Shown here piece after piece: positions 3,644-54,405 of a stretch of DNA of 64,000 bases; position 1 is the stretch's first letter, and the number at the start of each line of letters is the position of its first letter. Made by a program: the position numbers and the translations under genes. Source of the DNA: an uncultured Bacilli bacterium (lineage in GTDB: Bacteria; Bacillota_I; Bacilli_A; RF39; UBA660); NCBI GenBank assembly GCA_947629445.1, contig CANRDU010000004.1:8562-72561 (forward strand), written 5' to 3'. The notes under the pieces were generated by a model that saw nothing but the letters and a program-made list of their open reading frames with translations, had not been told where the DNA came from and ran no database searches.

Positions 3644-3988
3644 ATGACAAATACAAATGATTTTTTAGGTAAAGAGGTAACCGTAAAGATAGATAGACCA
3701 TTAGGGTCAACACATCCAAAACATGGATTTATGTATATGTTAAATTATGGCTTTATACCGAATACAATTAGTGGTGATGGTGAAGAATTAGATGCTTATT
3801 TAGTTGGCGAATTTGAACCAGTAGAAGAAGAAAAAGGCAAAGTAATAGCGATCATTCATAGAACGAACGATGATGATGATAAGTTGATTGTTTCCAAAAA
3901 TGGAAAAGAATATTCTGATGATGCCATTAGGGCTATGACAGAATTTCAAGAACGATTTTTCGAGTCAATCATTATTAGAAAAAAATAA
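3644..3988 (+). CDS. Small inorganic-pyrophosphatase-like protein
   Basis: DRPLGS..HP...Y.NYGFIP.T...DGEELDAYL and a DDDDK acidic cluster resemble short family I PPase-like proteins. Strong RBS gagggagg. Confidence 0.5.
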   Translation: MTNTNDFLGKEVTVKIDRPLGSTHPKHGFMYMLNYGFIPNTISGDGEELDAYLVGEFEPVEEEKGKVIAIIHRTNDDDDKLIVSKNGKEYSDDAIRAMTEFQERFFESIIIRKK

Positions 3989-9455: not shown

Positions 9456-9832
9456 TTATAAGTCTATATTCCACAAGCCAAGCTGTCCTTTAACTTCTTT
9501 ATCATTATTTATTTTTTTAGAATTAGTTAATTTCCAAGCATAACCAGTTCTATATTTAGAACCATATGCTATATTTTTTTCTGCAATTATTTTTTTGTTT
9601 AACTCATCATTTAATTCTAAACAATCTTCTATTTCTACTTCAGCTAGTATTTTTTTGATGGAAATTCTAAATTCAAATCCCTAAATTTTTCTAATTCTTT
9701 TTTATCAATTCCAGTTCCAGCATGAATTAGTATTTTGCCTCTATAATTGGTTTTCCAAGATCTAAATTCATATTTTTTTATACCTTCTGCAACAAGTGTA
9801 GCCCATGGTTGCTTTAAAGTTAATACTTTCAT
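9456..9832 (-). pseudogene. ASCH-domain gene interrupted by a frameshift at an A7 run
   Basis: The N-terminal 62 aa (MKVLTLKQPWATLVAEGIKKYEFRSW...ILIHAG) are a typical ASCH start and stop at 9644. The next frame continues IKKILAEVEIEDC...GYAWKLTNSKKI...VKGQLGLWNIDL to a stop at 9456-9458. One extra A in the run at about 9650-9656 would restore a ~125-aa ORF. Confidence 0.7.
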
Positions 9833-9895
9833 TGAACCACCTCAAAAACATTTTATCACAAATTCTTATAAAGGTTATTATATTACCTTGAATTA

Positions 9896-9904
9896 TGATA
9901 TAAT
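9896..9904 (+). promoter_or_regulatory. Extended -10 promoter element (TGaTATAAT) for the R-M operon
   Basis: tgatataat lies 26 nt upstream of the methyltransferase ATG. The -35 is weak. Confidence 0.4.
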
Positions 9905-9929
9905 TTATATGAGAGGATGGTGTCATATC

Positions 9930-10892
9930 ATGGAATTAAAAAAAATGAAATTTATCGATTTATTTGCTGGTATAGGTGGATTTAGATATGCACTAGAGTC
10001 TTTTGGATGTAAATGTGTTTTTTCATCTGAATGGGATAAATATTGTCAAGAAAGTTATAATTTAAATTTTGGAGAAATTCCATATGGAGATATAACAAAA
10101 ATAGATGAAAAAGATATTCCAAGTTTTGATATACTTTGTGCTGGTTTTCCATGTCAACCATTTAGTATTTCTGGAAAGCAAAAAGGATTTGAAGATACAA
10201 GAGGAACATTATTCTTTGATATAGTACGAATTGTTAGTTATCATAAACCTAAAATCATTTTTCTAGAAAATGTTAAAAATTTAAAAGCTCATAATGGTGG
10301 AGCAACTTTTGAAGTTATTTCAAAGACACTTGATAGTTTAAATTATAATATTTATCATAAAGTTCTAAATGCTAAAGATTTTAATTTACCACAAAACAGA
10401 GAAAGAATTACTATTATTTGTATAAGAAAGGATATTGATAATGGCAAATTCAAATTTCCAAGCCCATATAAAACATTTGCTACTATTAGTGATATAAAAG
10501 AGGATGATTCAATTACAAATAAATATATCCTTAATAGAAAAGATATCCATATAGACGAAAAAAAATTAAATGAAGCAATAAAAAATGGTAAAGTTCAAAA
10601 GCCTCTACAAATTGGGGTTATAGGGCAAGGTGGTCAAGGAAATAGAATTTACCACGAAAATGGCATAGGAATAACCCTAGCAGCTTCAAGTGGCGGTGCT
10701 GCTTCAAAAACAGGGGCTTACTATATTAATGGTAAGGTAAGAAAATTAAGTCCTAGAGAAGCCGCAAGATTACAAGGATTTCCTGAAAAGTTTAAGATAA
10801 TAGAAAATGACAATCAATCATTAAAGCAATTTGGTAATAGTGTACCAATTAACTTATTAAAAGAAGTTTTTAAAGGATTAAAAGATGTTTAG
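9930..10892 (+). CDS. DNA (cytosine-5)-methyltransferase, M.HhaI-like
   Basis: Motifs FAGIGG (I), GFPCQPFS (IV), ENV (VI), QNRER (VIII), GNSV (X). The region QIGVIGQGGQGNRIYHENGIGITLAASSGGAASKTGAYYINGKVRKL closely parallels my recollection of the M.HhaI TRD. RBS gagagga precedes the ATG at 9930; the ORF-track start at 9747 is an artefactual extension. Confidence 0.9.
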   Translation: MELKKMKFIDLFAGIGGFRYALESFGCKCVFSSEWDKYCQESYNLNFGEIPYGDITKIDEKDIPSFDILCAGFPCQPFSISGKQKGFEDTRGTLFFDIVRIVSYHKPKIIFLENVKNLKAHNGGATFEVISKTLDSLNYNIYHKVLNAKDFNLPQNRERITIICIRKDIDNGKFKFPSPYKTFATISDIKEDDSITNKYILNRKDIHIDEKKLNEAIKNGKVQKPLQIGVIGQGGQGNRIYHENGIGITLAASSGGAASKTGAYYINGKVRKLSPREAARLQGFPEKFKIIENDNQSLKQFGNSVPINLLKEVFKGLKDV

Positions 10893-10902
10893 GAGGATTA
10901 GA

Positions 10903-11739: not shown

Positions 11740-11768
11740 AAAAGTGACTATAATTCGTAGTCGCTTTT
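11738..11768. terminator. Bidirectional terminator between the convergent REase and relaxase genes
   Basis: agtgacta / tagtcgct stem (one G-T pair) flanked by an A-run and a T-run. It overlaps the relaxase stop codon. Confidence 0.55.
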
Positions 11769-13160
11769 ATTTGTCATATAAAATTCTTCAGCTGCTTCGT
11801 TCATTTCTCTATTAATAGATTTAAGTGCTTTATTTATTTCTGATTTATTAATTGTTCTAGGTGGATTAAATATAACTCTATGTTCTTTATCAGTTATTAA
11901 GTTTTTATTATTCATATCATTAGCAATTTCTCTAAAAAATCTAGAAGTAGTTGGATTTTTGCTATTAGCATTTTTACATAGATAAGTTATAAAATCTTTT
12001 CTTTCATCCATTCTTTTATTCATAACTGCATGAACGAAATCTCTATCTTCTCTTAATTCAGTATTTTCCATTTTAAGCTTCTGATTTTCTTTAATGAGTT
12101 TATTATTATCATTTTCAACTTTATTATTTCTATCTTTTTGATATTTTAAATTATCATTAATTGAAGATATATTATTAATTATATTTTTATAATTATCAAA
12201 ATCATCAATTATAGATTCAACATCTTTAATTAAAGTTTGTAATCTTTCTTTTTGCTTATTATTAAGCTTATAACCACCAAGTCTAGATTCTTCTAAACCA
12301 GATAATAAATCTTGCAACTCTTTTGAAGAGTTGTTTATCGATTTTATCTTATCATTATTTTTATCAATACTTCTTTTATTAATTTCTAGTTCTTTTTTTA
12401 ATTCTTGATAATTAACCATATCTTTAACATAAATATCTTTATTTCTTCCTTTTTCTTTAGTCTTCAGAGTAGCATTTTCTTTTTCAAAGTATTTATTAAA
12501 AGTATTAATACATTTTTCTCTCATTATATTTTGTATATGCTCAAGTCTTTCTTTAGTAAATACTGATGATTTATTTACTTGCTTGTATAAACCCGTTTTA
12601 CAACCATCCTTGACGGGAACACCAACTATATGCATATGTGGGGAAGTTTCGTCTAAGTGTACAACAGCATTTGTTATTTTAAACTCTGGAACAACTTTTT
12701 CTAAATCGTGCAAATGTTCCTCATAAACACTAACCATTTCTCTTTTAAACTCAAAATCTTTTGAATCCCAATATTCTTTATTCCCAAGTTCAATTATAAT
12801 CTCACAAGCAAGATCCCTTTTTTCATCTTTATTAACATATTCAAAATAATCATTAATTCTTCTACTAGGTCTAGATTGTTTATTATTATATTCAAGTCTT
12901 GCTTTTTCAAATTCAGTTTTATAAAATTCTTTAACATCATAAACAATATCATTAGTCCCTTTTAATTGATAAATATAATCATTATCATTTTCATATTTTC
13001 TAAAATCATGATTATTAACTTTTGACAATTGATGATAATTTTGTATTCCATTATTTGCAAGAGAAGAAGAACCACTTACATTATTTCTGGCATTTCCTCT
13101 TGCTGATGCTTTTCTATTTTTATTACTTCCCAGATGAAATGAATAAGTTAATTCAGTCAT
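11748..13160 (-). CDS. mob: MobV-family (Pre/Mob) relaxase
   Basis: HLDETSPHMHIVGVP matches the HxDE...PHxH metal-binding motif of MOBV relaxases. The C-terminal half is long and coiled-coil, as in Pre/MobM. Confidence 0.8.
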   Translation of the reverse strand: MTELTYSFHLGSNKNRKASARGNARNNVSGSSSLANNGIQNYHQLSKVNNHDFRKYENDNDYIYQLKGTNDIVYDVKEFYKTEFEKARLEYNNKQSRPSRRINDYFEYVNKDEKRDLACEIIIELGNKEYWDSKDFEFKREMVSVYEEHLHDLEKVVPEFKITNAVVHLDETSPHMHIVGVPVKDGCKTGLYKQVNKSSVFTKERLEHIQNIMREKCINTFNKYFEKENATLKTKEKGRNKDIYVKDMVNYQELKKELEINKRSIDKNNDKIKSINNSSKELQDLLSGLEESRLGGYKLNNKQKERLQTLIKDVESIIDDFDNYKNIINNISSINDNLKYQKDRNNKVENDNNKLIKENQKLKMENTELREDRDFVHAVMNKRMDERKDFITYLCKNANSKNPTTSRFFREIANDMNNKNLITDKEHRVIFNPPRTINKSEINKALKSINREMNEAAEEFYMTNKSDYEL

Positions 13161-13276: not shown

Positions 13277-15112
<1,836 letters not shown>

Positions 15113-15695: not shown

Positions 15696-15769
15696 TGGAG
15701 CGGGTGATGGGAATCGGACCCACGTTATCAGCTTGGAAGGCTGGAGTTCTACCATTGAACTACACCCGC
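15696..15769 (-). tRNA. tRNA-Gly (anticodon UCC), CCA encoded
   Basis: The reverse complement GCGGGTGTAGTTCAATGGTAGAACTCCAGCCTTCCAAGCTGATAACGTGGGTCCGATTCCCATCACCCGCTCCA folds as a cloverleaf with anticodon loop CTTCCAA. It is very similar to Bacillus tRNA-Gly(UCC). Confidence 0.9.
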
Positions 15770-15782
15770 ATCAACAACTATA

Positions 15783-29826: not shown

Positions 29827-29838
29827 TGGAGGATGCTT

Positions 29839-30810: not shown

Positions 30811-32564
30811 TGATTAATATAAAAGAAAATGAAAAGTTAAGCGTTTTAAATCATAGTTGTGCCCATTTATTAGCGCAAGCAGTTAAGCATTTATACCCAC
30901 AGGCGATGTTTTGGGTAGGACCTGTTATTGCAGAAGGCTTTTACTATGATATCGATTTAGGAGATAACGTTATCACAGATGAGGATTTGGAAAAAATTGA
31001 AAAGGAAATGAAAAAGATTTCCAAAGATGGTAAAAGAATTGTTCGTCATGAAATTTCCAAAGAGGAAGCTTTAGAACAGTTTAAAGATGATCCTTATAAA
31101 ATTGATTTAATTAGTCGTATGGATGAGAGTAGTACGGTTATTAGTTGCTATACGCAAGGGGATTTTACGGATTTATGTAGAGGACCCCATGTAGAGTCTG
31201 TGAAAGAATTAAAACATTTTAAATTATTAAAGGCAAGTGGTGCTTATTGGAAGGGCGATGCCAATAATAAGATGTTGCAAAGAATTTATGGTATTTGCTT
31301 TGAAACCGCCGAAGATTTGGAAGCTCATTTAAAGGAATTAGAAGAAGCAAAAATGCGAGATCATCGTAAACTTGGTAAGGAATTAGAATTATTTATGACG
31401 GATGACTTAGTGGGAAGAGGACTTCCGATGTTTCTTCCAAAGGGATATGTTGTATGGCAAGAATTAGAAAATTATATTCGTGAAAAAGAGAAGAAATTAG
31501 GATATTTACACGTCATGACTCCTTGTGTTGGAAATGTCGAACTTTACAAGACAAGTGGACATTGGGATCACTATAAAGAAAATATGTTTCCAGCGATGGA
31601 AGTAGAAGGAGAATCTTTTGTTTTAAGACCGATGAACTGTCCTCATCATATGATGATTTATGCTAATAAACTTCATTCCTATAAAGATTTACCAATTCGA
31701 ATAGGAGAGATTGCTCATGATTTCCGTTATGAAGCCAGCGGTGCTTTAAAAGGAATCGAAAGAGGAAGACACTTCTGTCAAAATGATGCTCATTTATTTG
31801 TAACGAAAGAACAGATTAAAGAAGAATTTAAAAATGTTGTTGATTTAATATTTGATGTTTATAAAGATTTTCATATTACAAATTATCGTTGTGTCTTATC
31901 TTTGAGAGATCCTGAAGATAAAACGAAATACCATCCAGATGATGAAATGTGGGATAGGGCCGAGAATGAACTTAGAGAAGTACTCAATGATTTAGGAATT
32001 GAATATACCGAAGAGATTGGCGAAGCTGCATTCTATGGACCAAAATTAGATGTAAATGTAAAACCAGCTGTTGGAAATGAATATACCTTATCTACTTGTC
32101 AATTAGATTTTTGCTTGCCGGCAAAATTTGACTTGAAATATATAGATTCAGATGGTACGAAAAAAACACCAGTAGTTTTACATAGGGCAATCCTTGGTTC
32201 TTTAGATCGTTTTATGGCTTATATTATTGAAGAGACAAAAGGAGCTTTCCCACTTTGGTTAGCCCCAGTACAAATAAACATTTTACCAGTTAATAACGAA
32301 TATCATCTAGAATATGCGAAAGAGGTAGAAGCTTGGTTAGAAGAAGCAAACATTCGGGTAGAATTAGATGATCGGGAAGAAAAAGTTGGTTATCGTATGA
32401 GAGAATCTGTTATGAAGAAAATCCCTTATACACTAATTCTAGGACAAAAGGAAGTAGATAATCGCCAAATTAGTTATCGAAAATACGGTAGTGAAGAAAC
32501 GATTACTCTCTCTAAAGAAGAGTTTATGAAAAAACTTGAGGACGAAATAAAATTAAAAAAATAA
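30810..32564 (+). CDS. thrS: Threonine--tRNA ligase lacking the N-terminal TGS domain
   Basis: Begins directly at the editing domain (HSCAHLLAQAV). Class II motifs RDHRKLG, FRYE and GFYGPKLD-like are present. 584 aa versus about 640 for Bacillus ThrS. Confidence 0.9.
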   Translation: MINIKENEKLSVLNHSCAHLLAQAVKHLYPQAMFWVGPVIAEGFYYDIDLGDNVITDEDLEKIEKEMKKISKDGKRIVRHEISKEEALEQFKDDPYKIDLISRMDESSTVISCYTQGDFTDLCRGPHVESVKELKHFKLLKASGAYWKGDANNKMLQRIYGICFETAEDLEAHLKELEEAKMRDHRKLGKELELFMTDDLVGRGLPMFLPKGYVVWQELENYIREKEKKLGYLHVMTPCVGNVELYKTSGHWDHYKENMFPAMEVEGESFVLRPMNCPHHMMIYANKLHSYKDLPIRIGEIAHDFRYEASGALKGIERGRHFCQNDAHLFVTKEQIKEEFKNVVDLIFDVYKDFHITNYRCVLSLRDPEDKTKYHPDDEMWDRAENELREVLNDLGIEYTEEIGEAAFYGPKLDVNVKPAVGNEYTLSTCQLDFCLPAKFDLKYIDSDGTKKTPVVLHRAILGSLDRFMAYIIEETKGAFPLWLAPVQINILPVNNEYHLEYAKEVEAWLEEANIRVELDDREEKVGYRMRESVMKKIPYTLILGQKEVDNRQISYRKYGSEETITLSKEEFMKKLEDEIKLKK

Positions 32565-32638: not shown

Positions 32639-33244
32639 ATGATTAATAAAAAAGAACCTATTAATATTGCATCACTACTAATTTCTTTAGTAGCACTTGT
32701 AATTGGTGTTATCTTTTGCTTTAATGATGGAGAAGCTATTTTCAAAGTAATTGGTTTTGTCGTTAGTGGTATTTTAATTTTATCGGGAGCAATTAAAGCA
32801 ATTGCTTATTTCCTTGGCAGAAAAAAAGGATCTACCACTTTTGGAGATTTGGTAGGGGGACTTATTTTTATTGTCTCTGGAATCTTGATTGCAATGTTCC
32901 CAAATTTTATTCCAACTACCATCAGTATTGTTTTAGGAATTCTCATTTTATTTAATGGTATTCAGCGTTTGATATTAGGTCTTGCGGTTCGTCAAATAGA
33001 TGCACAAGGCGCTAAAGTATTTTTGATAGAAGCTATTGTGATGATATTATTAGGTATCATTGTTATGACGAAATTGTTGTTGAACTTTATTGGTTTCTTC
33101 ATGATTGCTTATGCTATTTCTGGCATTATCGGTTATGTATACTATACTAGTCAAAATAAAGATTACTCTGAGGTATTAAATAAAACTGTGCCAAAAGATA
33201 TTAAAAAAAAAGAAGCTAAAGAGGGAGAATTTGAAGAGGAATAG
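32639..33244 (+). CDS. HdeD/DUF308-like membrane protein
   Basis: Six helices with repeated G(I/V)L.(I/L)..G motifs. Acidic/basic C-terminal tail. Confidence 0.5.
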   Translation: MINKKEPINIASLLISLVALVIGVIFCFNDGEAIFKVIGFVVSGILILSGAIKAIAYFLGRKKGSTTFGDLVGGLIFIVSGILIAMFPNFIPTTISIVLGILILFNGIQRLILGLAVRQIDAQGAKVFLIEAIVMILLGIIVMTKLLLNFIGFFMIAYAISGIIGYVYYTSQNKDYSEVLNKTVPKDIKKKEAKEGEFEEE

Positions 33245-33269
33245 ACTACTAGAATACTAGTAGTTTTTT
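33244..33269 (+). terminator. Rho-independent terminator
   Basis: actactag / ctagtagt stem followed by T6. Confidence 0.7.
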
Positions 33270-33323: not shown

Positions 33324-36212
33324 ATGAGTAAACAACCAATCGAAACATTAATAAAAAAATATGCTAAGGACTATCTTTTTTTGTTCTCGCAAGAAAAGCA
33401 GCAAGAGATGGTGCAAGAGGTGGAAGAAAAATTAGTGGATTCTCCCTCCGTAAAAAATGACCATCAAATGGAAAAAAATGTTGAAAGTCAAGTGGTACTA
33501 TGGATTAGTATGAATATCGCAAAGACTTTAGAAGACAATATTTCTCTTTTAGATTCTTACTTTCAAACGCAATGGCGAAAAGGCAGAAGAGATGTCCACA
33601 ATTTAATTTCTTTCGCTAAATTTTTTAGTCAAGTTTCTTTTAAACCTAGTATTGATTTTTATTTTCAACTGTTTGAACGTTATGAGGTATTGGAAAATGC
33701 ACTTCATCAAATAGTAGGAAATCAATCTAGTATTTCTTTTGATAGTTTGGAGCGTATTCCATCCTATGAAAAAATCTCAGAATTAATAGATGCTTACCTT
33801 TCTTTTAAAAATATCGAAATAGATTTTGAGGATAAGGGTAAAGAAAGTGATGAGGAAGATACCGGGAACTTTTTCCTTTCTACGGATTCTGTTCGTGATT
33901 ATTTATTAACTCTTAGTGGGAAACTCTTAACACCTACTGAGGAGAGGGACTATTTTCTAAGTTTAAAAAACGGTAACGAAACGATGGCTAACAAAATTGC
34001 CGAAGCCAATTTACGTTTGGTTGTTTCTATTGCTAAAAGGCGTCTAGGCAGAGGATTAGAGTTATTAGATTTGATTCAAGAGGGAAATTTAGGATTATTA
34101 AAAGCGATTGGTAGATTTGATGTAGAAAAGGGATATCGCTTTTCTACATATGCTACTTGGTGGATTCGTCAATCTATCGACCGGGCGATTGCTGATTTTG
34201 GTTCCACGATTCGAAAGCCTGTGCATATCGTCGAGTCAACCAATCGACTCTTACGGATTCAGCAAATATTGACGGATGAATTATTGCGCCCTCCTACCTT
34301 GGAAGAGTTGGCTAATCGTGCAGGTATGTCTACTTCTCGGGTCACTACATTACTAGGGTATCAACAGCAAACGGTTAGTATAAATGCCTCTATTAATGAT
34401 GATGAAGATACCGAATTAGAATCTTTTATTCCGGATATGAGAGATGATTATGATTCTATCATACAAGGAGAACTACGTAGTAAATTACTAGAAGCTATGG
34501 AAGTATGTGGATTGAGTCCTCGGGAAAGACAAATTTTAATTCTACGCTTTGGTTTAGATACGGGAAGTGGTAGAACATTACAGCAAGTAGGAAATATCTT
34601 TCATGTAACGAGAGAATATATTCGGCAAATAGAGGAAAGAGCACTTAAGAAGTTACGAAGTCCAAGAGGAAAAAGATTATTAAATGCTTTTCGTGATAAG
34701 CCAGATGAGTCTATTTCGTCCTCATTTGTTCCACTTAGAAGAGAAAGTTATGTAAATCAGGCTAGTGATTCTTATTTTTCAAAAAGAATAACCGATTATG
34801 TAACTGGTGATATAGATCGTATATGTGCCAAAGCACATAGCCTCCAATATGAATATCAAGAGATTTTAAAAAGAAGATTTGGAAGGGATTTTACCTTACC
34901 AAATCAAAGAGTTATGTCAGCAACGGATGAATTTCTTTTTCAAGAGGGAATTGTTCCAATGTTGAAAATGATGCTGAAAGAAGAAGATACAGAAGAAGAA
35001 TTAGCATTCATAGAAATGAGAAAGAAAGAAAAACGTCAACCACATTTAGAGGAAGAATATAGAAAAAGGGAACATGGTGTGACTAGGAAAGGAGTACCAG
35101 AGATAGAAAAGAAAGTAGAAGAAGAAAACGTATCGTTACAAAGTAAAGAGACAACAATGGAATCTCCAGTAGATAAAATAGAAACTCAAAAAGAAGAAGG
35201 TGCTAAAAAAGATATGAAGCAGGAAAGAAAAAGAGGAAAATTATTGATATCCTATTTTGAAGGTTATACGTTAGAGCAGGTGAGAAGTGCTTTATATGTG
35301 CTTAAAGAAAGCGAACTTCAAACGCTCTATAAAAAGTTTGGCGAAACATTAGAAGAATTGCACTTAGAAGGGATGGAAAACCGTGAAAATGTATGTATCA
35401 GTCAACGGGCAATTCCGAAAATAAGACGAGAATTAAAAAATATCTATCATAATCAAGGAGGTATGTCACAACCAAGCAATCCGGATGAAAAGAAATCTAG
35501 CATGCCATCTAGTCCTAAAAAAGAAGAAACTTCTAAAAAAAGAAGAAGTTTAAAGTCGATTTATATTTATTATAGTGAAGAGAAAGAAGAACATGTGGAT
35601 TATGGTATTTCTTTATTAAAATTAGATGAAAGATCTGTGTTGGATCATCTTTATGGGGAAGATTATCATCAACCACAAAAAGGTAAGATAACACCAGGAG
35701 AAAAAGCGAAACTTTATCGTGTAATATTACCTAAAATTGCGGCAGGGATTTCTGAAATAAAAGAAAAAGAGAAACTTGAAAATGTTTCTCATGAAAAAGT
35801 TACAACCACTTTGCCTGGCGTTCAGGAAGAATTTGTAAGAGAAGGTGAGATTCCACCAAGAGAAAGCACTTTTGTTCACGGGTTAACAAAAGTAGAGGAT
35901 TCTTTCTCTAAGAAAGATTATGAAATGTTGCGAGATTATCTAAGAAGACCAGAGTTTCAAGCGGCTCTTTTAGAATTGCCACTAGAGGAAAGTGTGATTA
36001 CGGCATTAACACTTTCCTTGATTGGAACAAAGCGAGTTTCTATCGCTACTTTAGCAGAACTTCTAGGAATAGAAAAAGACCAAGTAATGGAAGATGCTAA
36101 AAAAGGATTATTTCAGATAAAAAAATGTTTTGACTTTGAGATAGATAATCAAGGAGAACGATTTGTAAAGAAAATAGGAGGTATGCATTCTGATGGGAAA
36201 AAAGAAAAATAG
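33324..36212 (+). CDS. Sigma-70 family (SigA/RpoD-like regions 1.2-4.2) with a ~187-aa N-terminal and a ~515-aa C-terminal extension
   Basis: aa 188-447 align block by block with Bacillus SigA (EGNLGLLKAIGRFDVEKGYRFSTYATWWIRQSIDRAIAD...RFGLDTGSGRTLQQVGNIFHVTREYIRQIEERALKKLR). The ORF then continues for a further 515 aa. Confidence 0.85.
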   Translation: MSKQPIETLIKKYAKDYLFLFSQEKQQEMVQEVEEKLVDSPSVKNDHQMEKNVESQVVLWISMNIAKTLEDNISLLDSYFQTQWRKGRRDVHNLISFAKFFSQVSFKPSIDFYFQLFERYEVLENALHQIVGNQSSISFDSLERIPSYEKISELIDAYLSFKNIEIDFEDKGKESDEEDTGNFFLSTDSVRDYLLTLSGKLLTPTEERDYFLSLKNGNETMANKIAEANLRLVVSIAKRRLGRGLELLDLIQEGNLGLLKAIGRFDVEKGYRFSTYATWWIRQSIDRAIADFGSTIRKPVHIVESTNRLLRIQQILTDELLRPPTLEELANRAGMSTSRVTTLLGYQQQTVSINASINDDEDTELESFIPDMRDDYDSIIQGELRSKLLEAMEVCGLSPRERQILILRFGLDTGSGRTLQQVGNIFHVTREYIRQIEERALKKLRSPRGKRLLNAFRDKPDESISSSFVPLRRESYVNQASDSYFSKRITDYVTGDIDRICAKAHSLQYEYQEILKRRFGRDFTLPNQRVMSATDEFLFQEGIVPMLKMMLKEEDTEEELAFIEMRKKEKRQPHLEEEYRKREHGVTRKGVPEIEKKVEEENVSLQSKETTMESPVDKIETQKEEGAKKDMKQERKRGKLLISYFEGYTLEQVRSALYVLKESELQTLYKKFGETLEELHLEGMENRENVCISQRAIPKIRRELKNIYHNQGGMSQPSNPDEKKSSMPSSPKKEETSKKRRSLKSIYIYYSEEKEEHVDYGISLLKLDERSVLDHLYGEDYHQPQKGKITPGEKAKLYRVILPKIAAGISEIKEKEKLENVSHEKVTTTLPGVQEEFVREGEIPPRESTFVHGLTKVEDSFSKKDYEMLRDYLRRPEFQAALLELPLEESVITALTLSLIGTKRVSIATLAELLGIEKDQVMEDAKKGLFQIKKCFDFEIDNQGERFVKKIGGMHSDGKKEK

Positions 36213-37119
36213 AAAACGCGAACCAGAAGTAATCATTTATCCTATTGAGACAGAACTACAAAAATTTAAAATGAGATATGCTTCTTTTTTAACAAATATT
36301 TCGGATGATGAATTACGAAAGTGGTATCAAGAATCCATTGCCAATTACCAGAAAGAAAGTGGTATTAGTTGGGAGATTGATAGTGCTTATTATGTAGAGA
36401 CCAAAATGTTCTCTAGGATGAACTCTCTTATTTTAGAAGGAGATATTGATTTAGAAATTGAGGTTATTCAAAGATATTCCTCAATGGCAAAGTTAATTTT
36501 AAAACAATGCAATTATCAGGGAACAGAAGGAGCAAAAATTGTTGATTTAGCTATTACGGATGCTATTGAAAATTATGATGGTACTAGTAATTTTCGAACA
36601 CTACTAGTAAAAAGTGTGAAAGCAATGATTACGAAACTAGAGGAGAAAAAAACGGCTCCTGTCAAAAAAGTGGAACCACCTATACAGTCTCCTTTAAAAC
36701 CAGAAATTACTGCTTCAAAACCTAGAAAAAAAGTAGATATTCCTACCATAACTACTCCGTTGATGGAAGAATCAATCCCAAAGCGAAATCTAGAAACCAT
36801 TTTAATGCCATGTATTACGAAAGATAAAACATCTTCTCCTAGTCATAGAGAAGTATCTGAGTTAGACCTTTTGATTGCTTCTTTAGATATAGTTTCAAAA
36901 GCACCTTTGGACGATGAAAATTATGTTCGCTTTTTAGCGCTTAAATATGGCTATTTTCAAACCTTTTATTCTTTTGATGAAATTGCAAGTATTTTAAATA
37001 TGAATAGGGAAAGAGTTATCGCTTATTACAAACAATCCCTTACTTTTGTAAAAGATTGGTTTGGATATGCGTTAGAGAAATATTTTACTTATATATTAAC
37101 AAATGACGAAAACGAATGA
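36193..37119 (+). CDS. Hypothetical protein with a C-terminal sigma-region-4-like HTH
   Basis: Overlaps the sigma gene end by 20 nt (RBS aggagg at 36176-36181). C-terminus ENYVRFLALKYGYFQTFYSFDEIASILNMNRERVIAYYKQSL resembles sigma region 4. Confidence 0.55.
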   Translation: MGKKKNRKREPEVIIYPIETELQKFKMRYASFLTNISDDELRKWYQESIANYQKESGISWEIDSAYYVETKMFSRMNSLILEGDIDLEIEVIQRYSSMAKLILKQCNYQGTEGAKIVDLAITDAIENYDGTSNFRTLLVKSVKAMITKLEEKKTAPVKKVEPPIQSPLKPEITASKPRKKVDIPTITTPLMEESIPKRNLETILMPCITKDKTSSPSHREVSELDLLIASLDIVSKAPLDDENYVRFLALKYGYFQTFYSFDEIASILNMNRERVIAYYKQSLTFVKDWFGYALEKYFTYILTNDENE

Positions 37120-37120
37120 G

Positions 37121-39088
37121 TTATTCATTCGTTTTTATAGTGGGAATTAAATCTTCTAGATTCTCCTCTCGATAGGTAGGTTCTGTTCCTTTAAGATAAT
37201 AAAACATAGTTGCTTTATCATCATTTGGGGATGCAATTTCTCCGGTAATAGGATTTACTAAAGTTCCAACAATATTGTTGGGCATAGTATACCAAGCATC
37301 TTCTTTATCTTTTAGATAGTTTTCAGCAATATCTTTCCACATAAATCGTATTTCTTTACTAGTAGTAGAAGAATCATTAGGACCAGTATCATATCCACCC
37401 CAAATTCCAATCACAATATTGGGATTATATCCAAATATAAGACGATCATTGTCCGTTGTTCCCGTTTTAATGGCATATTTGTGAGTGAGATAAGAAGTAA
37501 TGTCGTAACAAGTTGGATAACTGTAGTCAATGAAATGATAGTTGTAAGTACTGGTTAATGCTTCATTTAAAATATAGACTAAACTACTATTCAAGGTAGG
37601 TTCCATTTTATCTTCATTTTCATAGAGAATATTTCCTTCCATATCTTCTACTTTGGAGATTAATTTTCCATTGACGCGGTATCCCATATTAGCGAATGTA
37701 GCATAAGCTTGCACCATTTCAAATAAAGAGATTTCCCCGCTACCAAGAGCAAGGGAAGGATTGGCTTGCAAGGATTCCGTAATTCCTAATCGATGAGCCA
37801 TTTCCACTAGGGTGTTTTCCCCTAAGAATAAATGTGTTTTTACTGCATAGATATTGTCACTATAGGCAAGAGCTGCGGCCATGGTAATATTTTTATTTCC
37901 GTATTGATTGTTGTAATTAGAAGGACTATAAGTTTTATTTTCCGAAAAGACAAAGGTTGTTTTTTCACTTGTAAAGGTAGTAGATTCCGTAAAACCATTT
38001 TCTAAAGCAGCATAGTAGAGGAAAGGTTTCATGGTAGAACCCACTTGCCTTTTTGCTTGAATAGCGCGGTTATATTGACTCACAGAATAATTTCTTCCAC
38101 CTGTAAGCGCTAGAACATGTCCATTATTAGGATCCATCATAATAGCGGCAACTTGTAAATCTGGATTGGTAATATTTTGTTCCATCGCTTCTTCTAAAAT
38201 GGTTTGAGCATTTAAATCTAGATAAGTATAGATTTTTAAACCACCTGTTTCTATAAACGTAGTAGGAACTTCTTCTATCTCTTTTAATTCTTGCATGACG
38301 GCATCTTGATAGTACATGAGTGTTTTTAAATTGTTTTGAGCGATAGAACCATAATAGGTAAGTTCCTCATGAGAAGCTTTTTCTTTCTCTTCTTCACTAA
38401 TCATTTCTTCTCGTACCATACTAGCTAGAACTGTATTTTGTCTTTGTTTTGCTTTTTCTTCATTAACGAGGGGAGAATAATTAGAAGGTGATTTTGGAAT
38501 TCCCACTAGGATAGATGCTTCTGCGAGTGTTAAGTCTTTCGCATTTTTATGAAAATAATAAAGACTAGCATTTTCAATACCATAAATTCCTCCATAGTTA
38601 ATGGTATTGAGGTATGCTTCTAAGATTTCATCTTTGGAGTACTGGGATTCTAATTGGATGGTTAGCCATGCTTCTTTTAATTTTCTTTCCCACGTCTTTT
38701 CGAACGATAAAAATAAGTTTTTGGATAATTGCTGACTAATGGTAGATGCTCCTTGTAAATTTGCTCCATGGGTTAGATTAATGTATAGAGATTTGATGAT
38801 ACGAAGATAATCAAAACCACTATGTTTATAAAAATTCTTGTCCTCGATAGCAATAGTTGCCTGGATGGCATAAGAAGAAATATCTTCTAAAGGAACCCAT
38901 TGATCACTTAAACCTTCCACTAAATTTCCATTTTTATCGTAGATATAAAATTCATTCGCACTTTTAATTACTAAATGACTCATGTATTTTGCGTAGGTAT
39001 ATAGTCCAAAATAACAAGTAGCGCAGATAATACTGATAAAAATGCTTAATTTGATTAATTTTTTTATGTATTTCATACCATCACTCAA
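37121..39088 (-). CDS. Class A penicillin-binding protein (glycosyltransferase + transpeptidase)
   Basis: GT51 motifs IAIEDKNFYKHSGFD and GASTISQQL. Transpeptidase motifs STMKP (SxxK), SDN and KTGTT. N-terminal membrane anchor. Confidence 0.9.
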   Translation of the reverse strand: MSDGMKYIKKLIKLSIFISIICATCYFGLYTYAKYMSHLVIKSANEFYIYDKNGNLVEGLSDQWVPLEDISSYAIQATIAIEDKNFYKHSGFDYLRIIKSLYINLTHGANLQGASTISQQLSKNLFLSFEKTWERKLKEAWLTIQLESQYSKDEILEAYLNTINYGGIYGIENASLYYFHKNAKDLTLAEASILVGIPKSPSNYSPLVNEEKAKQRQNTVLASMVREEMISEEEKEKASHEELTYYGSIAQNNLKTLMYYQDAVMQELKEIEEVPTTFIETGGLKIYTYLDLNAQTILEEAMEQNITNPDLQVAAIMMDPNNGHVLALTGGRNYSVSQYNRAIQAKRQVGSTMKPFLYYAALENGFTESTTFTSEKTTFVFSENKTYSPSNYNNQYGNKNITMAAALAYSDNIYAVKTHLFLGENTLVEMAHRLGITESLQANPSLALGSGEISLFEMVQAYATFANMGYRVNGKLISKVEDMEGNILYENEDKMEPTLNSSLVYILNEALTSTYNYHFIDYSYPTCYDITSYLTHKYAIKTGTTDNDRLIFGYNPNIVIGIWGGYDTGPNDSSTTSKEIRFMWKDIAENYLKDKEDAWYTMPNNIVGTLVNPITGEIASPNDDKATMFYYLKGTEPTYREENLEDLIPTIKTNE

Positions 39089-50986: not shown

Positions 50987-52027
50987 ATGAAAGATTTAGA
51001 AAAAATATTATCAGAGTTAGAAACCAAAGTGAAAAAAATAGAAGAAGAAGGGGATTTAAATAATCTTCGCGTAGAATATTTAGGAAAAAAGGGATGCATT
51101 ACCGCACTTTCTGCGAAAATTGGGGAACTACCTATTGAGGAGAAAAAGACATTCGGAGCGGAACTTAATCGCGTTAAGAGTAAAGCTACTGAGTTGATTG
51201 AGGCAAAAAAGAAGGAAATTGATGATCGAATCTTAAATGAAAAACTAGCGAAAGAAGATATTGATGTTACTTTGCCATCTACTCCAATTCCAACGGGTGC
51301 TCCGAATATTCTTGAAAATATTATCGAAGAAGTAGAGGATGTTTTTATGTCTATGGGATATGATGTTGTGGATGGACCCGAGATAGAAGAAGATCACTAT
51401 AACTTTGAATTGTTAAATATTCCAAAAGGACATCCCGCTCGTGATGCTCAAGATACTTTCTATATTGAAGATGAGACAATGCTCCTAAGAAGTCAAACTT
51501 CTCCTGTACAAGCACGTACGATGTTAGCAGCTGGTGGGGATAAACCAATTCGGATGATTTGTCCAGGAAAAACCTATCGAAGAGATGCGGATGATGCTAC
51601 TCACTCTCATCAATTTATGCAGATAGAAGGATTGTTAGTCGATAAAAATATTAGTCTTTCCGATTTAAAGGGAACATTCGATGTGATTGCGAAAAAATTA
51701 TTTGGGGAGGATGTAAAGACCCGTTTTAGACCTAGTTATTATCAATTTACAGAGCCATCTGTAGAAACGGATGTTTCTTGCTTTGCTTGTAAGGGAGAAG
51801 GATGTCCTATCTGTAAAAATACGGGATGGATTACGGTAAGTGGAGCGGGTATGGTACACCCAAATGTTCTATCGAATTGTGGATATGATCCAAAAGTTTG
51901 GTCAGGCTTTGCTTTTGGATTTGGGGCAGAAAGACTTGCAATGTTAAAGTATGGTGTCAATGATGTTCGTACATTCTATCAAACAGACTTAAGAGAATCA
52001 AAGACATTCGATAGAAAGGATGTGTAA
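50987..52027 (+). CDS. pheS: Phenylalanine--tRNA ligase alpha subunit
   Basis: Class II motifs, e.g. HPARD, FRPSYYQFTEPS and GFAFGFGAERL. Confidence 0.9.
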   Translation: MKDLEKILSELETKVKKIEEEGDLNNLRVEYLGKKGCITALSAKIGELPIEEKKTFGAELNRVKSKATELIEAKKKEIDDRILNEKLAKEDIDVTLPSTPIPTGAPNILENIIEEVEDVFMSMGYDVVDGPEIEEDHYNFELLNIPKGHPARDAQDTFYIEDETMLLRSQTSPVQARTMLAAGGDKPIRMICPGKTYRRDADDATHSHQFMQIEGLLVDKNISLSDLKGTFDVIAKKLFGEDVKTRFRPSYYQFTEPSVETDVSCFACKGEGCPICKNTGWITVSGAGMVHPNVLSNCGYDPKVWSGFAFGFGAERLAMLKYGVNDVRTFYQTDLRESKTFDRKDV

Positions 52028-52029: not shown

Positions 52030-54405
52030 ATGATTAGTTTAAATTGGGTAAAAGATTACGTCGATTTAGAAGGGGAAGATTTAGGCGAACTTGCTGTTAA
52101 AGTTACCAAAGCGGGTGTCAATGTAGAGCAAGTAATTACTAAGCATATCGATAATCTTGTCATTGGCCATATTTTAGAGTGTACGGATCATCCAGATAGT
52201 GATCATCTCCATCTATGTCAGGTAGATATTGGAAAGAAAACCGTGCAAATTGTCTGTGGTGCTCCTAATGTTCGCAAAGGCCTAACGGTTATTGTCGCAC
52301 TTCCTGGATGCGTTTTACCAGGAAATGTGGAAATTAAAGCTGGCAAAATTCGTGGTCAAGAATCTAATGGAATGATTTGTGCTTTATTTGAACTCGGAGT
52401 AGAAGAGAAAACAGAAGAAAATTATGCCAAAGGAATTGAAGAAGTAAAGGAAAAATTAAAACCGGGAAGTGATGCAAATCTTTATTTAAAAACGGATGAT
52501 ACTCTCTATGAATTAGATGTTCATAAACATAGAAATAATGATTGTTATTATCACATTGGTTTTGCTTATGAAATTGCTTGTATTCTCAATAAAAAAGTAA
52601 AACTTCCAGATTGTTCTTACAAAGAAATAAAAGAAGATATTCACGATTATATGGATTTAAAAGTAAAGACCAAAAAATGCCCTTATTATACGGCTAAAAT
52701 GGTTCGTGATGTCGTCATTAAAGAGTCTCCAGAATTCATTCAAAGAAGATTAATTGCGGCAGGAATGAGACCAATTAATAACGTTGTTGATATTTCTAAC
52801 TACGTTATGCTAGAGTATGGACAACCTCTTCATTTCTTCGATAAAGATAAATTAGGCGATAAAATTTTAGTAAGGGATGCTAAGGAAGAGGAAGAAATTA
52901 TTACTTTGGATGGTCAAAAGAGAATCTTAAAAGCAAGCGATATTGTTATTACGGATTCTAAGAAACCTGTATGTATCGCGGGAGTTATGGGTGGAGAAAA
53001 TACAGATGTCGATGAAAATACGAAAAATATTTTAATTGAAAGTGCTATTTTCGATGCCGTAAGTATTCGTTATACTGCTTCTAATTTGAATTTAAAGAGT
53101 GAAGCATCTATTCGTTATGGAAAAGGTCTAAATTATGAATATACAGATGCAGCTTTAAATCGAGCTTGTCATTTGCTCCAAAAGTATGCCGATGCCAAAA
53201 TTTTAACGGGTACTTTAAAATATGATAAAGTAGATAAAAAAGAAAAAGTAGTTTCTTTTGAAACTAGCGAGATCAATTCTTTATTAGGCATTACCATTAC
53301 CGATGATGATGTCAAAACAGAACTTGGACGCTTAGATTTCCCTTATACTTATAAGAAAGGAAAATTTACGGTTACGATTCCAAGAAGAAGATTGGATATT
53401 GATCCAAATATTAATGATATTGCCGAAGAAATTGGTAGACTCTATGGTTACCATAATCTCGTATCTACCTTACCAGTAGTACCAACAAGACGTGGTGTTT
53501 ATGTAGGAGATGTTGGGATTAGAAAAACGATTTCAAAACGTCTTCGTGCTTTAGGATTAAATGAGACAAAGACATATACCTTAGTAAGTGAAGAGATGGC
53601 TAAAGCATTCCGTTATGATAATAAGGAAGCCGTTCTTTTACCAAATCCACTTAGTTCTGATAAATCGATTGTTAGAACTAGCCTGTTACCATCTCTTATG
53701 AATGTCTATGAATATAATAAATCTCGTCATGTCGAGGATATTTTACTCTATGAGATTGCGAAAACGTACAATAAAGCGTATGAAGAAGAAAGCAAAGTAG
53801 CCATGTTGATAAAAGGAAATTACCTTATCAATCAGTGGCAGGGAACAAAGGTAAAATGTGATTTCTATTGTTTAAAGGGAATTGTTGAAAACCTACTTAC
53901 GTATTTAGGATTTAAAAATCGCTATACTTTTGAAAAAGCAGTATTACCAGAACTTCATCCAGGTATGAGCGCTGTTATTAAGTTAGATAGAGAAATCATC
54001 GGAGTTATTGGAAGAGTTCATCCAAGTTATCATAAAGATGAAATTTATGTAGCAGAACTATCTATGACCAAATTATATGAAAAACAAGTAAAACCAATTA
54101 GATATAAAGAAGCTTCTAAATATCCAGAAATTAAAAAAGATTTAGCATTTGCTATCGATAAGAAAGTCGAAGTAAATACGATTATCAATCAAATCAAAAA
54201 ATCTGGTGGAAAGCTTCTTACCGATATTCAAGTATTTGATTTATATATGGGAGAAAATGTTGGAAAAGAGGAAAAATCCGTTGCCTTTTCATTGACATTC
54301 TCAGATTCTACTCGTACCTTGAGTGATGAAGAAGTAACCCAAGTATTTGATAAAATTATTGCGGATACGACGAAAAATTTATCTGCAAAATTAAGGAATA
54401 AGTAA
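52030..54405 (+). CDS. pheT: Phenylalanine--tRNA ligase beta subunit
   Basis: 791 aa with a tRNA-binding N-terminal domain (HPDSDHLHLCQVDIG), B3/4 and B5 domains, and an FDX-ACB C-terminus. Confidence 0.9.
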   Translation: MISLNWVKDYVDLEGEDLGELAVKVTKAGVNVEQVITKHIDNLVIGHILECTDHPDSDHLHLCQVDIGKKTVQIVCGAPNVRKGLTVIVALPGCVLPGNVEIKAGKIRGQESNGMICALFELGVEEKTEENYAKGIEEVKEKLKPGSDANLYLKTDDTLYELDVHKHRNNDCYYHIGFAYEIACILNKKVKLPDCSYKEIKEDIHDYMDLKVKTKKCPYYTAKMVRDVVIKESPEFIQRRLIAAGMRPINNVVDISNYVMLEYGQPLHFFDKDKLGDKILVRDAKEEEEIITLDGQKRILKASDIVITDSKKPVCIAGVMGGENTDVDENTKNILIESAIFDAVSIRYTASNLNLKSEASIRYGKGLNYEYTDAALNRACHLLQKYADAKILTGTLKYDKVDKKEKVVSFETSEINSLLGITITDDDVKTELGRLDFPYTYKKGKFTVTIPRRRLDIDPNINDIAEEIGRLYGYHNLVSTLPVVPTRRGVYVGDVGIRKTISKRLRALGLNETKTYTLVSEEMAKAFRYDNKEAVLLPNPLSSDKSIVRTSLLPSLMNVYEYNKSRHVEDILLYEIAKTYNKAYEEESKVAMLIKGNYLINQWQGTKVKCDFYCLKGIVENLLTYLGFKNRYTFEKAVLPELHPGMSAVIKLDREIIGVIGRVHPSYHKDEIYVAELSMTKLYEKQVKPIRYKEASKYPEIKKDLAFAIDKKVEVNTIINQIKKSGGKLLTDIQVFDLYMGENVGKEEKSVAFSLTFSDSTRTLSDEEVTQVFDKIIADTTKNLSAKLRNK

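What the first reader, a model, noticed from the sequence alone, without database searches (positions are those of the whole stretch)
33324..36212. SigA-like sigma factor with a ~515-aa C-terminal extension made of repeated region-4-like modules
aa 188-447 (nt about 33885-34664) are a complete group-1-like sigma core. Regions 2.1-2.4, 3 and 4.2 are nearly identical in pattern to Bacillus SigA. Primary-type sigmas normally end right after region 4.2, but this ORF continues for 515 aa.

Within the tail, the region-4 start motif (E-x-x-[ILV]-L-x3-[FY]-G) recurs:
- ERQILILRFGLD (aa 401-412), the genuine region 4;
- YQEILKRRFGRD (511-522);
- SELQTLYKKFGET (663-675);
- ERSVLDHLYGED (769-781).

Each later copy is preceded by a basic patch and a Y-rich segment (KRGKLLISYFEGY and KRRSLKSIYIYY) and followed by an I/V-x-P-K-I segment. 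A final clear HTH-like unit follows (EESVITALTLSLIGTKRVSIATLAELLGIEKDQVMEDAKKGL, aa 888-928). Extra sigma4-like DNA- or flap-binding modules on an essential-type sigma would be an unusual architecture.
Basis: partly seen in the sequence, partly recalled or inferred. Interest (0 to 1): 0.7.

Follow-up and report, generated by a model that had tools for sequence, protein, structure and literature searches.

The report
SigA-like sigma with sigma4-derived repeat tail
This is a real 962-residue sigma factor whose long tail was built by repeatedly copying its own promoter-binding end domain, and it belongs to a large family from uncultured gut Bacilli that I could not find described anywhere I searched.

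Summary
The ORF 33324..36212 (+) is intact and encodes 962 aa. An identical or near-identical ORF appears in three independent assemblies. Syntenic orthologues of 845-1041 aa occur in three rabbit-gut "uncultured Bacilli" MAGs.

Residues 186-455 are a complete SigA-type core (regions 1.2-4.2). The tail is not random:
- Three ~75-aa modules (486-554, 632-707, 737-810) match a repeat family found in at least 892 protein clusters, with up to 20 copies per protein.
- Deep profile comparison links the module to sigma region 4 (93%, E=3e-7), with the first HTH helix deleted.
- Residues 862-945 are a second, complete sigma4 fold (profile E=3e-7; TM 0.75-0.81, rmsd 1.4-1.7 Å). Its -35-contacting residues are acidic.

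The "primary/essential sigma" reading is probably wrong:
- there is no region 1.1 and no adjacent dnaG;
- the score is below the RpoD cut-offs;
- the core evolves faster than neighbouring housekeeping genes;
- one variant carries a mosaic tract of canonical dnaG-linked sigA sequence.

Best reading: a SigA-derived paralogue with a working sigma core and a non-DNA-binding tail of sigma4 mimics that has a regulatory or tethering role. The tail mechanism is inferred, not shown. No Pfam, NCBIfam, PHROG or PADLOC model covers the tail, and I found no paper describing it.

The parts
33324..36212 (+). Whole ORF, 962 aa (111.6 kDa, pI 5.8): N-domain, sigma core, three sigma4-derived modules, C-terminal sigma4-like domain
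   Evidence: The identical product is P0167.
33243..33266 (+). Terminator-like hairpin plus T-run after the DUF308 gene, just upstream of the sigma gene. AAGAGG lies 9 nt before the ATG at 33324.
   Evidence: pattern match only
33324..33878 (+). N-terminal acidic domain (aa 1-185, pI 4.7) in the place of region 1.1. It is conserved in the RpoD-type members of the family and matches no known family.
33879..33989 (+). Region 1.2 (aa 186-222)
   Evidence: Aligned to SigA region 1.2. The Pfam r1_2 model itself did not score.
33990..34199 (+). Region 2 (aa 223-292): core-binding and -10 recognition, FSTYATWWIRQ conserved
34221..34448 (+). Region 3 (aa 300-375)
34476..34673 (+). Genuine region 4 (aa 385-450) with -35 recognition helix TREYIRQIE (TRERVRQIE in the orthologues)
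34779..34985 (+). Module 1 (aa 486-554), the most divergent copy; present in all 4 orthologues
   Evidence: 37.5 bits
34989..35216 (+). K/E-rich linker (aa 556-631; 41% K+E; rich in indels between orthologues)
35217..35444 (+). Module 2 (aa 632-707); absent from the 845-aa orthologue P0001
   Evidence: 58.7 bits
35532..35753 (+). Module 3 (aa 737-810), the best-conserved copy. AF2 pLDDT 84: four helices, with a long last helix in place of the HTH.
   Evidence: (63.4 bits)
35907..36158 (+). C-terminal sigma4-like domain (aa 862-945) with an acidic 'recognition helix' GIEKDQVMED
36193..37119 (+). Downstream 308-aa gene overlapping the sigma stop by 20 nt (GGAGG 11 nt upstream of its ATG). Its product is a degenerate sigma-like protein whose C-terminus (aa 247-296) is the same family-type sigma4-like domain. 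It is found only in this clade.
37109..37135 (-). Hairpin between the convergent 308-aa gene and the PBP gene; closes the two-gene unit
   Evidence: pattern match only

Best explanation
The gene encodes a full-length, SigA-derived sigma-70-family paralogue. It belongs to a large, undescribed family from low-GC uncultured (mostly gut) Bacilli. The family architecture is an N-domain, a sigma core, then one to about twenty sigma4-derived modules, then a second sigma4-like domain.

Shown:
- The core keeps all regions 1.2-4.2 and the determinants for -10 and -35 recognition.
- The tail arose by duplication of region 4.
- The three modules have lost the first HTH helix.
- The terminal sigma4 fold carries acidic residues at the -35-contacting positions.
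- Each module is individually conserved among orthologues, while the linkers are not.

Inferred:
- The core works as a promoter-specificity subunit of RNA polymerase on SigA-like promoters.
- It does so alongside a conventional dnaG-linked SigA, not as the housekeeping sigma.
- The tail does not read DNA. It acts as a set of sigma4 mimics for protein-protein contacts. These could bind partners that normally bind sigma4 (the beta-flap tip or sigma4-directed regulators), the sigma's own core (autoinhibition in cis), or the co-translated 308-aa protein that shares the same C-terminal domain. Any of these would regulate or tether this sigma.
For: Reality of the gene:
- The ORF is intact.
- An identical or near-identical ORF is in 3 assemblies.
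- Syntenic orthologues occur in 3 GTDB species.

Core:
- Pfam r2/r3/r4 all score.
- The best PDB matches are Firmicute SigA over regions 1.2-4.2, at 243 bits.
- The family's internal region 4 keeps T-R-E-R-I/V-R-Q-I-E at 85-97%.

Tail homology:
- Unit profiles give u2~u3 at E=4e-10.
- An HMM built from unrelated proteins finds 3 copies.
- The module matches 892 representative proteins, with up to 20 copies per protein.
- Module against region 4: 93.3%, E=2.7e-7, with a 9-residue deletion of the first HTH helix. C-domain against region 4: 96.9%, E=1.7e-10.
- The C-domain profile hits SigA region 4 in the PDB at E=3e-7.
- The AF2 C-domain model (pLDDT 83) superposes on isolated sigma4 at TM 0.75-0.81 and rmsd 1.4-1.7 Å.

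Loss of DNA reading:
- The C-domain has E53%, E90%, I46% and E51% where SigA has R, R, R and Q.
- The module model has a loop plus one long helix instead of an HTH.

Selection: modules and C-domain are 47-55% identical among orthologues, against 15-30% for the linkers.

Not the housekeeping sigma:
- TIGR02393 scores 266.9 against a cut-off of 354.
- There is no r1.1.
- There is no dnaG in the window or beside 5 relatives.
- The core is 59-62% identical between genomes whose ThrRS is 88-92% and whose ArgRS, PBP and DnaB_2 are 73-78% identical.
- The core is 49% identical to B. subtilis SigA, whereas B. subtilis and C. difficile SigA share 79%.
- An 81-nt mosaic tract in variant L016 is 93% identical to canonical dnaG-linked sigA genes.

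Tail as an independent unit:
- Stand-alone module plus C-domain proteins are encoded next to sigma-fused ones (L013).
- The downstream 308-aa protein shares the C-domain (94%, E=1.2e-7).
Against: - No experiment or expression data exists.
- The rest of the genome could not be read, so a second sigA is inferred, not seen.
- The mosaic tract could be an assembly chimera from another organism in a 3.3x-coverage contig.
- Foldseek gives no significant match for the module (best E=1.7). Its sigma4 origin therefore rests on profile comparisons, and on marginal PDB sequence hits at E=0.005-0.1.
- Modules 2 and 3 are mildly basic (pI 8.8-9.1), so non-canonical nucleic-acid binding is not excluded.
- No partner for the tail has been identified. 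The protein-protein role is argued by elimination.
Confidence: 0.6

Rival explanations
1. It is the organism's primary (housekeeping) SigA, which in this lineage has swapped region 1.1 for a new N-domain and gained a C-terminal extension.
For: - The best matches are SigA/RpoD.
- The -10 and -35 determinants are conserved.
- The gene sits among housekeeping genes in a syntenic block conserved in four species.
- No other sigma gene is in the 64-kb window.
Against: - It scores below the RpoD cut-offs.
- It lacks r1.1.
- It is not linked to dnaG in any of 6 loci. By contrast, low-GC gut contigs carry ordinary dnaG-sigA pairs of 365-452 aa.
- The core diverges faster than its neighbours.
- It is 49% identical to B. 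subtilis SigA, against 79% between B. subtilis and C. difficile.
- The mosaic tract implies a second, canonical sigA sequence in the same sample.
Confidence: 0.12
2. The tail modules are extra DNA-binding units that read upstream promoter DNA (additional -35-like or UP-like elements), which makes this a multi-site DNA-reading sigma.
For: - The modules descend from the DNA-binding domain sigma4.
- They have basic lead-ins (KKRRSLK, KRGK) and a basic last helix (PKIRR).
- Modules 2 and 3 have pI 8.8-9.1.
Against: - The first HTH helix is deleted.
- There is no significant structural match to any HTH.
- The C-domain recognition helix is acidic and conserved as such.
- Module 1 and the C-domain are acidic.
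Confidence: 0.15
3. The long ORF is an artefact: a missed stop or frameshift after region 4.2, or a chimeric fusion of a sigma gene with a downstream gene.
For: None found. The only anomaly is the 81-nt mosaic tract in one low-coverage assembly, which does not affect the frame.
Against: - The same 962-aa ORF is in three assemblies.
- The tail is in frame and conserved in three other species.
- About 90 of the 297 sampled family members have the same core-plus-tail order.
Confidence: 0.01
4. It is part of a mobile element, phage or anti-phage system (for example an MzaA-like defence sigma).
For: - MzaA models hit the protein.
- A mobile element lies 18 kb away in the window.
Against: - The MzaA hits cover only the generic sigma core and are far below cut-off (261 against 800).
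- The tail, the N-domain and the downstream protein have no PADLOC or PHROG hit.
- tblastn finds no match in phage or plasmid collections.
- Chromosomal synteny is conserved.
Confidence: 0.03

Closest known systems
Firmicute primary sigma SigA / RpoD (group 1 sigma-70)
   Same: It has regions 1.2, 2, 3 and 4 in order. The best PDB and NCBIfam matches are SigA/RpoD. The -10 (FSTYATWWIRQ) and -35 (TRExIRQIE) determinants are conserved.
   Different: - It has no region 1.1; an unrelated 185-aa N-domain takes its place.
- It carries a 500-aa tail.
- It scores below the equivalog cut-offs.
- It is not next to dnaG.
- It evolves fast.
ECF sigma factors with fused C-terminal regulatory domains (ECF41, ECF42, SigJ SnoaL_2; PMC3426412, PMC5766207, PMC7826278)
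   Same: The general logic is a sigma with an extra C-terminal domain that modulates its own activity in cis. That is the working model proposed here.
   Different: Those proteins are two-domain group-4 sigmas, and their extensions (SnoaL-like, TPR and others) are unrelated to sigma4. Here the core is group-1-like with region 3, and the extension is made of sigma4 copies. I recall this resemblance from the literature; I did not test it.
Sigma region 4 (Pfam PF04545) as solved in 1KU3, 1RIO, 6ONU
   Same: The C-terminal domain (aa 862-945) matches by profile (E=3e-7) and by fold (TM 0.75-0.81, rmsd 1.4-1.7 Å). The modules match by profile-profile comparison (93%) over helix 4.1 and the last helix.
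   Different: The -35-contacting residues are replaced by acidic or hydrophobic ones in the C-domain. The first HTH helix is deleted in the modules, which also have two extra N-terminal helices (IYEYF, EEVDxAI).
MzaA, the sigma-70-family protein of the MZA anti-phage system (NF041931 / PDLC02203)
   Same: It is also a long sigma-70-family protein with a large non-sigma extension. The generic core matches.
   Different: The match covers the core only (261 bits against a cut-off of 800). The MzaA extension is N-terminal and unrelated, and there are no Mza partner genes nearby.

Membership tests
Sigma-70 family, group 1/2 type (RpoD/SigA-like) | Regions 1.2, 2, 3 and 4 present in order | tested here: met
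   Pfam r2, r3 and r4 score. Region 1.2 is aligned to SigA.
Primary sigma (RpoD/SigA equivalog) | Score above the curated equivalog cut-offs (TIGR02393, PRK09210) | tested here: not met
   266.9 against 354, and 286.7 against 572.
Primary sigma (RpoD/SigA equivalog) | N-terminal region 1.1 | tested here: not met
   There is no Sigma70_r1_1 hit, and the N-domain profile has no Pfam or PDB match. Canonical low-GC SigA proteins do score r1_1.
Primary sigma (RpoD/SigA equivalog) | Gene immediately downstream of dnaG (macromolecular-synthesis operon, the usual arrangement in Firmicutes) | tested here: not met
   Upstream are thrS and a DUF308 gene. There is no DnaG in the window, nor beside 5 relatives.
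Primary sigma (RpoD/SigA equivalog) | The only group-1 sigma in the genome; essential | not testable with these tools
   Only 64 kb of the genome is available. There are indirect hints of a second sigA.
ECF (group 4) sigma with C-terminal extension | Only sigma2 and sigma4, no region 3 | tested here: not met
   Region 3 is present.
MzaA (MZA anti-phage system sigma) | Full-length match above cut-off, plus Mza partner genes | tested here: not met
   261 bits against 800, core only. The neighbours are housekeeping genes.
Sigma region 4 domain: C-terminal domain aa 862-945 | Sequence and fold of sigma4 (4.1 helix plus HTH) | tested here: met
   PDB profile E=3e-7. hhalign 96.9%. Foldseek top hits are all sigma4, TM 0.75-0.81.
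Sigma region 4 domain: C-terminal domain aa 862-945 | Conserved -35-contacting residues (R-E-R-x-R-Q) | tested here: not met
   K-D-Q-x-M-E in the window, and E/E/E/I/E in the family.
Sigma region 4 domain: the three modules | Homology to sigma4 | tested here: inconclusive
   hhalign gives 93.3%, E=2.7e-7. PDB sequence hits are enriched for sigma4 but at E=0.005-0.1. Foldseek is not significant. The first HTH helix is missing.
Undescribed 'sigma plus IYEYF-module plus C-domain' family (defined here) | At least one module matching the 78-position module HMM, plus the terminal C-domain | tested here: met
   3 modules and the C-domain are present. The same order occurs in about 90 RpoD-type and about 88 two-domain-type members.

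The most novel reading that the evidence does not exclude
This family could be a new way of controlling a sigma factor. The sigma would carry, in cis, a multivalent array of sigma4 mimics: HTH-less modules plus an acidic sigma4. These would compete with, or substitute for, its own region 4 at the RNA polymerase beta-flap or at sigma4-directed regulators. The result would be a built-in anti-sigma, decoy or tether whose strength is set by copy number (1 to about 20). Stand-alone module proteins would act in trans on the same target.
Probability: 0.25. Interest if true: 0.8.

Novelty: new variant of a known kind. Interest (0 to 1): 0.62.

Why it matters
Group-1-like sigma factors are textbook proteins that end at region 4.2. 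C-terminal add-ons are known only for some ECF sigmas, and those add-ons are unrelated domains.

Here a SigA-type core is fused to serial copies of its own region 4. The architecture recurs in hundreds of protein clusters from uncultured low-GC gut bacteria. In those proteins it is fused to RpoD-like cores, fused to SigK/E-like cores, or free-standing.

If the tail competes for sigma4's partners, this would be a new regulatory principle for transcription initiation. It would also be a natural source of sigma4-surface binders.

At the least, a Pfam-style family definition is missing for three units: the module, the C-domain and the N-domain. Current annotation ("sigma-70 family RNA polymerase sigma factor" or "hypothetical protein") hides the architecture.

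Tried and rejected
- Self-BLAST of the protein found no off-diagonal hits. BLAST between hand-cut units was only marginal, so profiles were needed.
- The search for homologous proteins with the 7-unit alignment returned nothing. This is probably a limit of its word index, because the exhaustive search with the same alignment found 892 proteins.
- Pfam, NCBIfam, PADLOC and PHROGs on the tail, the units, the N-domain and the downstream protein gave no family, apart from fragments of Sigma70_r4.
- The N-domain profile against the PDB gave nothing credible.
- Foldseek of the module against the PDB and against viral structures gave no significant match.
- tblastn of a canonical family member against phage and plasmid collections found no match.
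- The IMG/VR scans failed or were uninformative.
- A weak module hit in window ORF 3644..3988 was read and dismissed as chance. The sequence looks like an unrelated small enzyme.
- An exact 62-mer of the mosaic tract was not found in the metagenome collection. A degenerate pattern was then used instead.
- Six literature searches found no description of the family.
- Organism names could not be obtained beyond 'Bacilli bacterium' or 'bacterium'.
Full report
**The observation**

The ORF 33324..36212 (+) is real, uninterrupted and 962 aa long. Pfam finds Sigma70_r2 (226-289), r3 (304-372) and r4 (396-445). NCBIfam RpoD models align residues 186-455.

Solved SigA structures from C. difficile, B. 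subtilis and S. aureus align from region 1.2 to within a few residues of their own C-termini, at window residue ~453. About 505-515 residues therefore lie beyond the point where SigA normally stops.

A sequencing or assembly artefact is excluded for three reasons:
- The identical 962-aa product is in an NCBI MAG contig (P0167). Products differing at 1 and 10 residues are in two ENA assemblies.
- Three GTDB species, all rabbit-gut 'uncultured Bacilli' MAGs, carry syntenic orthologues of 845, 923 and 1041 aa.
- The tail is in frame and conserved in all of them.

**Anatomy**

The four orthologues share one plan:

| Part | Residues | Notes |
|---|---|---|
| N-domain | 1-185 | Acidic |
| Regions 1.2-4.2 | 186-455 | Sigma core |
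| Module 1 | 486-554 | Present in all four |
| K/E-rich linker | 556-631 | Rich in indels |
| Module 2 | 632-707 | Missing from the 845-aa orthologue |
| Module 3 | 737-810 | Best conserved |
| Linker | 814-861 | |
| C-terminal domain | 862-945 | |

Modules and the C-domain are 47-55% identical among orthologues. Linkers are only 15-30% identical. The three modules are only 16-26% identical to each other, so they are old copies that are each constrained separately.

The gene follows a terminator-like hairpin (33243-33266) and has a plausible RBS. A 308-aa gene starts 20 nt before its stop codon, behind a GGAGG. A hairpin then separates that gene from the convergent PBP gene. The two genes therefore look like one unit. 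These are pattern matches only.

**Are the repeats real, and are they region-4-like?**

Plain self-BLAST shows nothing. Profiles do:
- Four-sequence profiles give module 2 ~ module 3 at 96.7%, E=4e-10 over 76 columns, and module 1 ~ module 2 at 84%, E=8e-6.
- A 7-sequence module profile was searched exhaustively against 1.84 billion representatives. It found 892 proteins at E<=1e-3 and 312 at E<=1e-10, with up to 18-20 copies per protein.
- The consensus is KKxLKTIYEYFxEYSKEEIDEAISKLSEEEKELLKKRYGEDLDNPxxxKLTKEEKKKFYNTIIPKIKKLL.
- An HMM made from 650 modules of proteins outside the window's clade finds exactly three copies in the window protein (37.5, 58.7 and 63.4 bits). In all four orthologues it also gives a weak partial hit on the genuine region 4.1.
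- In canonical relatives, the many copies add up to significant Pfam Sigma70_r4 scores that cover only model positions 2-20, which is region 4.1.

With deep profiles the relationships are as follows:
- The module aligns to the family's own region 4 at 93.3%, E=2.7e-7. The alignment runs from the helix before 4.1 to the last helix, with a 9-residue deletion that removes the first helix of the HTH.
- The C-domain aligns to region 4 at 96.9%, E=1.7e-10.

Against the PDB by sequence profile:
- The C-domain hits SigA region 4 at E=3e-7.
- The module's best hits are nearly all sigma region 4, but at E=0.005-0.1.

Structure predictions:
- Module 3 with 46 aligned modules gives pLDDT 84: four helices, with a loop plus one long helix where sigma4 has its HTH.
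- Foldseek finds no significant match for it. The weak hits are mostly sigma4.
- The C-domain model (pLDDT 83) returns only sigma factors. It superposes on isolated sigma4 (1RIO_H, 1KU3, 6ONU) at TM 0.75-0.81 and rmsd 1.4-1.7 Å.

To be precise, the tail holds three sigma4-derived modules without an HTH, plus one complete second sigma4 fold.

**Can the tail read DNA?**

The family's internal region 4 keeps the -35 recognition motif T-R-E-R-[IV]-R-Q-I-E at 85-97% (window: TREYIRQIE). The equivalent C-domain positions are E (53%), E/D/Q, E (90%), I (46%) and E (51%). In the window they read K-D-Q-x-M-E.

Together with the deleted HTH helix in the modules, this argues against canonical -35-type DNA binding. 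Modules 2 and 3 are mildly basic (pI 8.8-9.1). Module 1, the C-domain and the N-domain are acidic. Non-canonical nucleic-acid binding is therefore not excluded.

**The family**

I scored 297 relatives with my own HMMs. They fall into three groups:

| Architecture | Approximate count |
|---|---|
| RpoD-type: (N)-1.2-2-3-4-modules-C | ~90 |
| Two-domain type: 2-(4)-modules-C | ~88 |
| Modules alone, or modules plus C-domain | ~104 (many are fragments) |

- The core of one two-domain member tested (P0047) resembles SigK/SigE.
- True stand-alone proteins do exist. On a 1.38-Mb scaffold, three family genes lie in tandem. Two have a sigma core with 4 and 6 modules. The third is a complete 357-aa ORF with 3 modules plus the C-domain and no core.
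- The window's downstream 308-aa protein is a degenerate sigma-like protein (TIGR02937 E=4e-4). Its C-terminus is homologous to the family C-domain (94%, E=1.2e-7). This gene is specific to the window's clade.
- The N-domain is shared by the RpoD-type members but matches no Pfam or PDB entry.
- Sources name these proteins only 'sigma-70 family RNA polymerase sigma factor' or 'hypothetical protein', from 'Bacilli bacterium' or 'bacterium' MAGs.
- No Pfam, NCBIfam, PHROG or PADLOC model covers the tail.
- There is no match in phage or plasmid collections.
- Six literature searches found no description.

**Is it the housekeeping sigma?**

Probably not, for the following reasons:
- It scores below the RpoD cut-offs: TIGR02393 gives 266.9 against 354.
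- It lacks region 1.1.
- It is not next to dnaG. The window has no primase, and five RpoD-type relatives are not next to dnaG either.
- Its core is 49% identical to B. subtilis SigA, whereas B. subtilis and C. difficile SigA share 79% over the same region.
- Between the window and the three MAGs the core is 59-62% identical. The neighbouring genes are more conserved: ThrRS 88-92%, ArgRS 73-76%, PBP 74-76%, DnaB_2 75-78% and RF1 67%. From general knowledge, primary sigmas are normally among the slowest-evolving proteins.

There is also an unexpected clue. One assembly of the same strain (L016) is identical to the window over 8.9 kb, apart from one upstream nucleotide and 27 differences. All 27 lie inside an 81-nt tract of region 2.2.
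- That tract encodes a canonical SigA peptide.
- A degenerate search for the peptide found 33 low-GC metagenome loci whose ORFs are 365-452 aa.
- In the 13 of these loci that I examined, the ORF ends right after region 4.2 and follows a 561-633-aa upstream ORF.
- In the three loci tested with Pfam, the upstream ORF is DnaG and the sigma ORF contains region 1.1.
- The tract is 75/81 identical to those sigA genes, against 52/81 for the window allele. The flanks are only ~53-55% identical.

Whether the tract is gene conversion or an assembly chimera, it shows a conventional sigA-like sequence coexisting with this gene. Most simply, that sequence is the organism's own sigA. This is an inference. 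The rest of the genome could not be read.

**Mechanism**

Shown:
- the core is an intact SigA-type core with promoter-recognition determinants;
- the tail is of sigma4 origin;
- canonical DNA-reading features are lost in the tail;
- modules and C-domain are under purifying selection;
- the module-plus-C-domain unit also exists as a separate protein.

Inferred:
- The protein is an alternative, SigA-derived sigma that forms holoenzyme and uses -35/-10-type promoters. One invariant change in this clade at the position equivalent to the -12-contacting threonine (IDRAIAD against ITRAIAD) may shift specificity.
- Its tail acts through protein-protein contacts as a sigma4 mimic. Candidate targets are the beta-flap tip, sigma4-directed regulators, its own core (autoinhibition, as proposed for ECF sigmas with C-terminal extensions), or the co-translated 308-aa protein. 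None of these partners was tested.

**Verdict**

The 'primary sigma' and 'DNA-binding' glosses are not supported. The protein is a member of a large, uncharacterised variant of the sigma-70 family, which is novel in architecture though not in basic kind.

Noticed in passing
window 4000-15800: A low-GC (22-28%) block carries a serine recombinase (13277..15112 -), a Mob_Pre relaxase (11748..13160 -), a C5 cytosine methylase (9747..10892 +) and several membrane or unknown ORFs. It lies next to tRNA-Gly (15696..15769 -). It looks like an integrated mobilisable element.
   Followed up: partly
L016 3735-3815 (= window 34059-34139): In a contig that is otherwise identical, an 81-nt tract of the sigma gene (aa 246-272) is replaced by sequence 93% identical to canonical dnaG-linked sigA genes. 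This is either gene conversion between sigma paralogues or an assembly chimera.
   Followed up: yes
window 42876-47784: About 5 kb lies between prfA (41763..42818) and the PrmC-like methyltransferase (47873..48589). These two genes are adjacent in the related MAG (L001). The block holds a CAP-domain protein, four ORFs without Pfam hits and an ABC ATPase, so it is an insertion relative to the relative.
   Followed up: partly
L013 6001-11824: Three family genes lie in tandem on a 1.38-Mb scaffold. They encode 700 aa (core plus 4 modules plus C), 870 aa (core plus 6 modules plus C) and 357 aa (3 modules plus C, no sigma core). The family expands locally, and the tail exists as a free protein.
   Followed up: partly
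window 29833-30810 and 39174-39512: Two conserved ORFs (325 aa and 112 aa) have no Pfam hit. Both keep their place in the syntenic block in all four species, at 48-51% and 38-46% identity.
   Followed up: no
window 30810-32564: The threonyl-tRNA synthetase is only 584 aa. Its orthologue shows tRNA_SAD, the catalytic domain and the anticodon domain but no N-terminal TGS domain. I recall this shortened form from Mollicutes-like lineages.
   Followed up: no
window 50703-50902: A T-box leader (103 bits) lies upstream of two ORFs (50987..52027 and 52030..54405). From their sizes and from a similar pair in L011, I take these to be pheS and pheT.
   Followed up: no
P0012 residues 42-63 (canonical family member): The canonical module gives a sub-threshold hit to NCBIfam NF045770, 'MG284/MPN403 family protein, C-terminal domain' (E=3e-6; 27 bits against a cut-off of 37). 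This may be a distant link to uncharacterised Mycoplasma proteins. No literature was found.
   Followed up: partly
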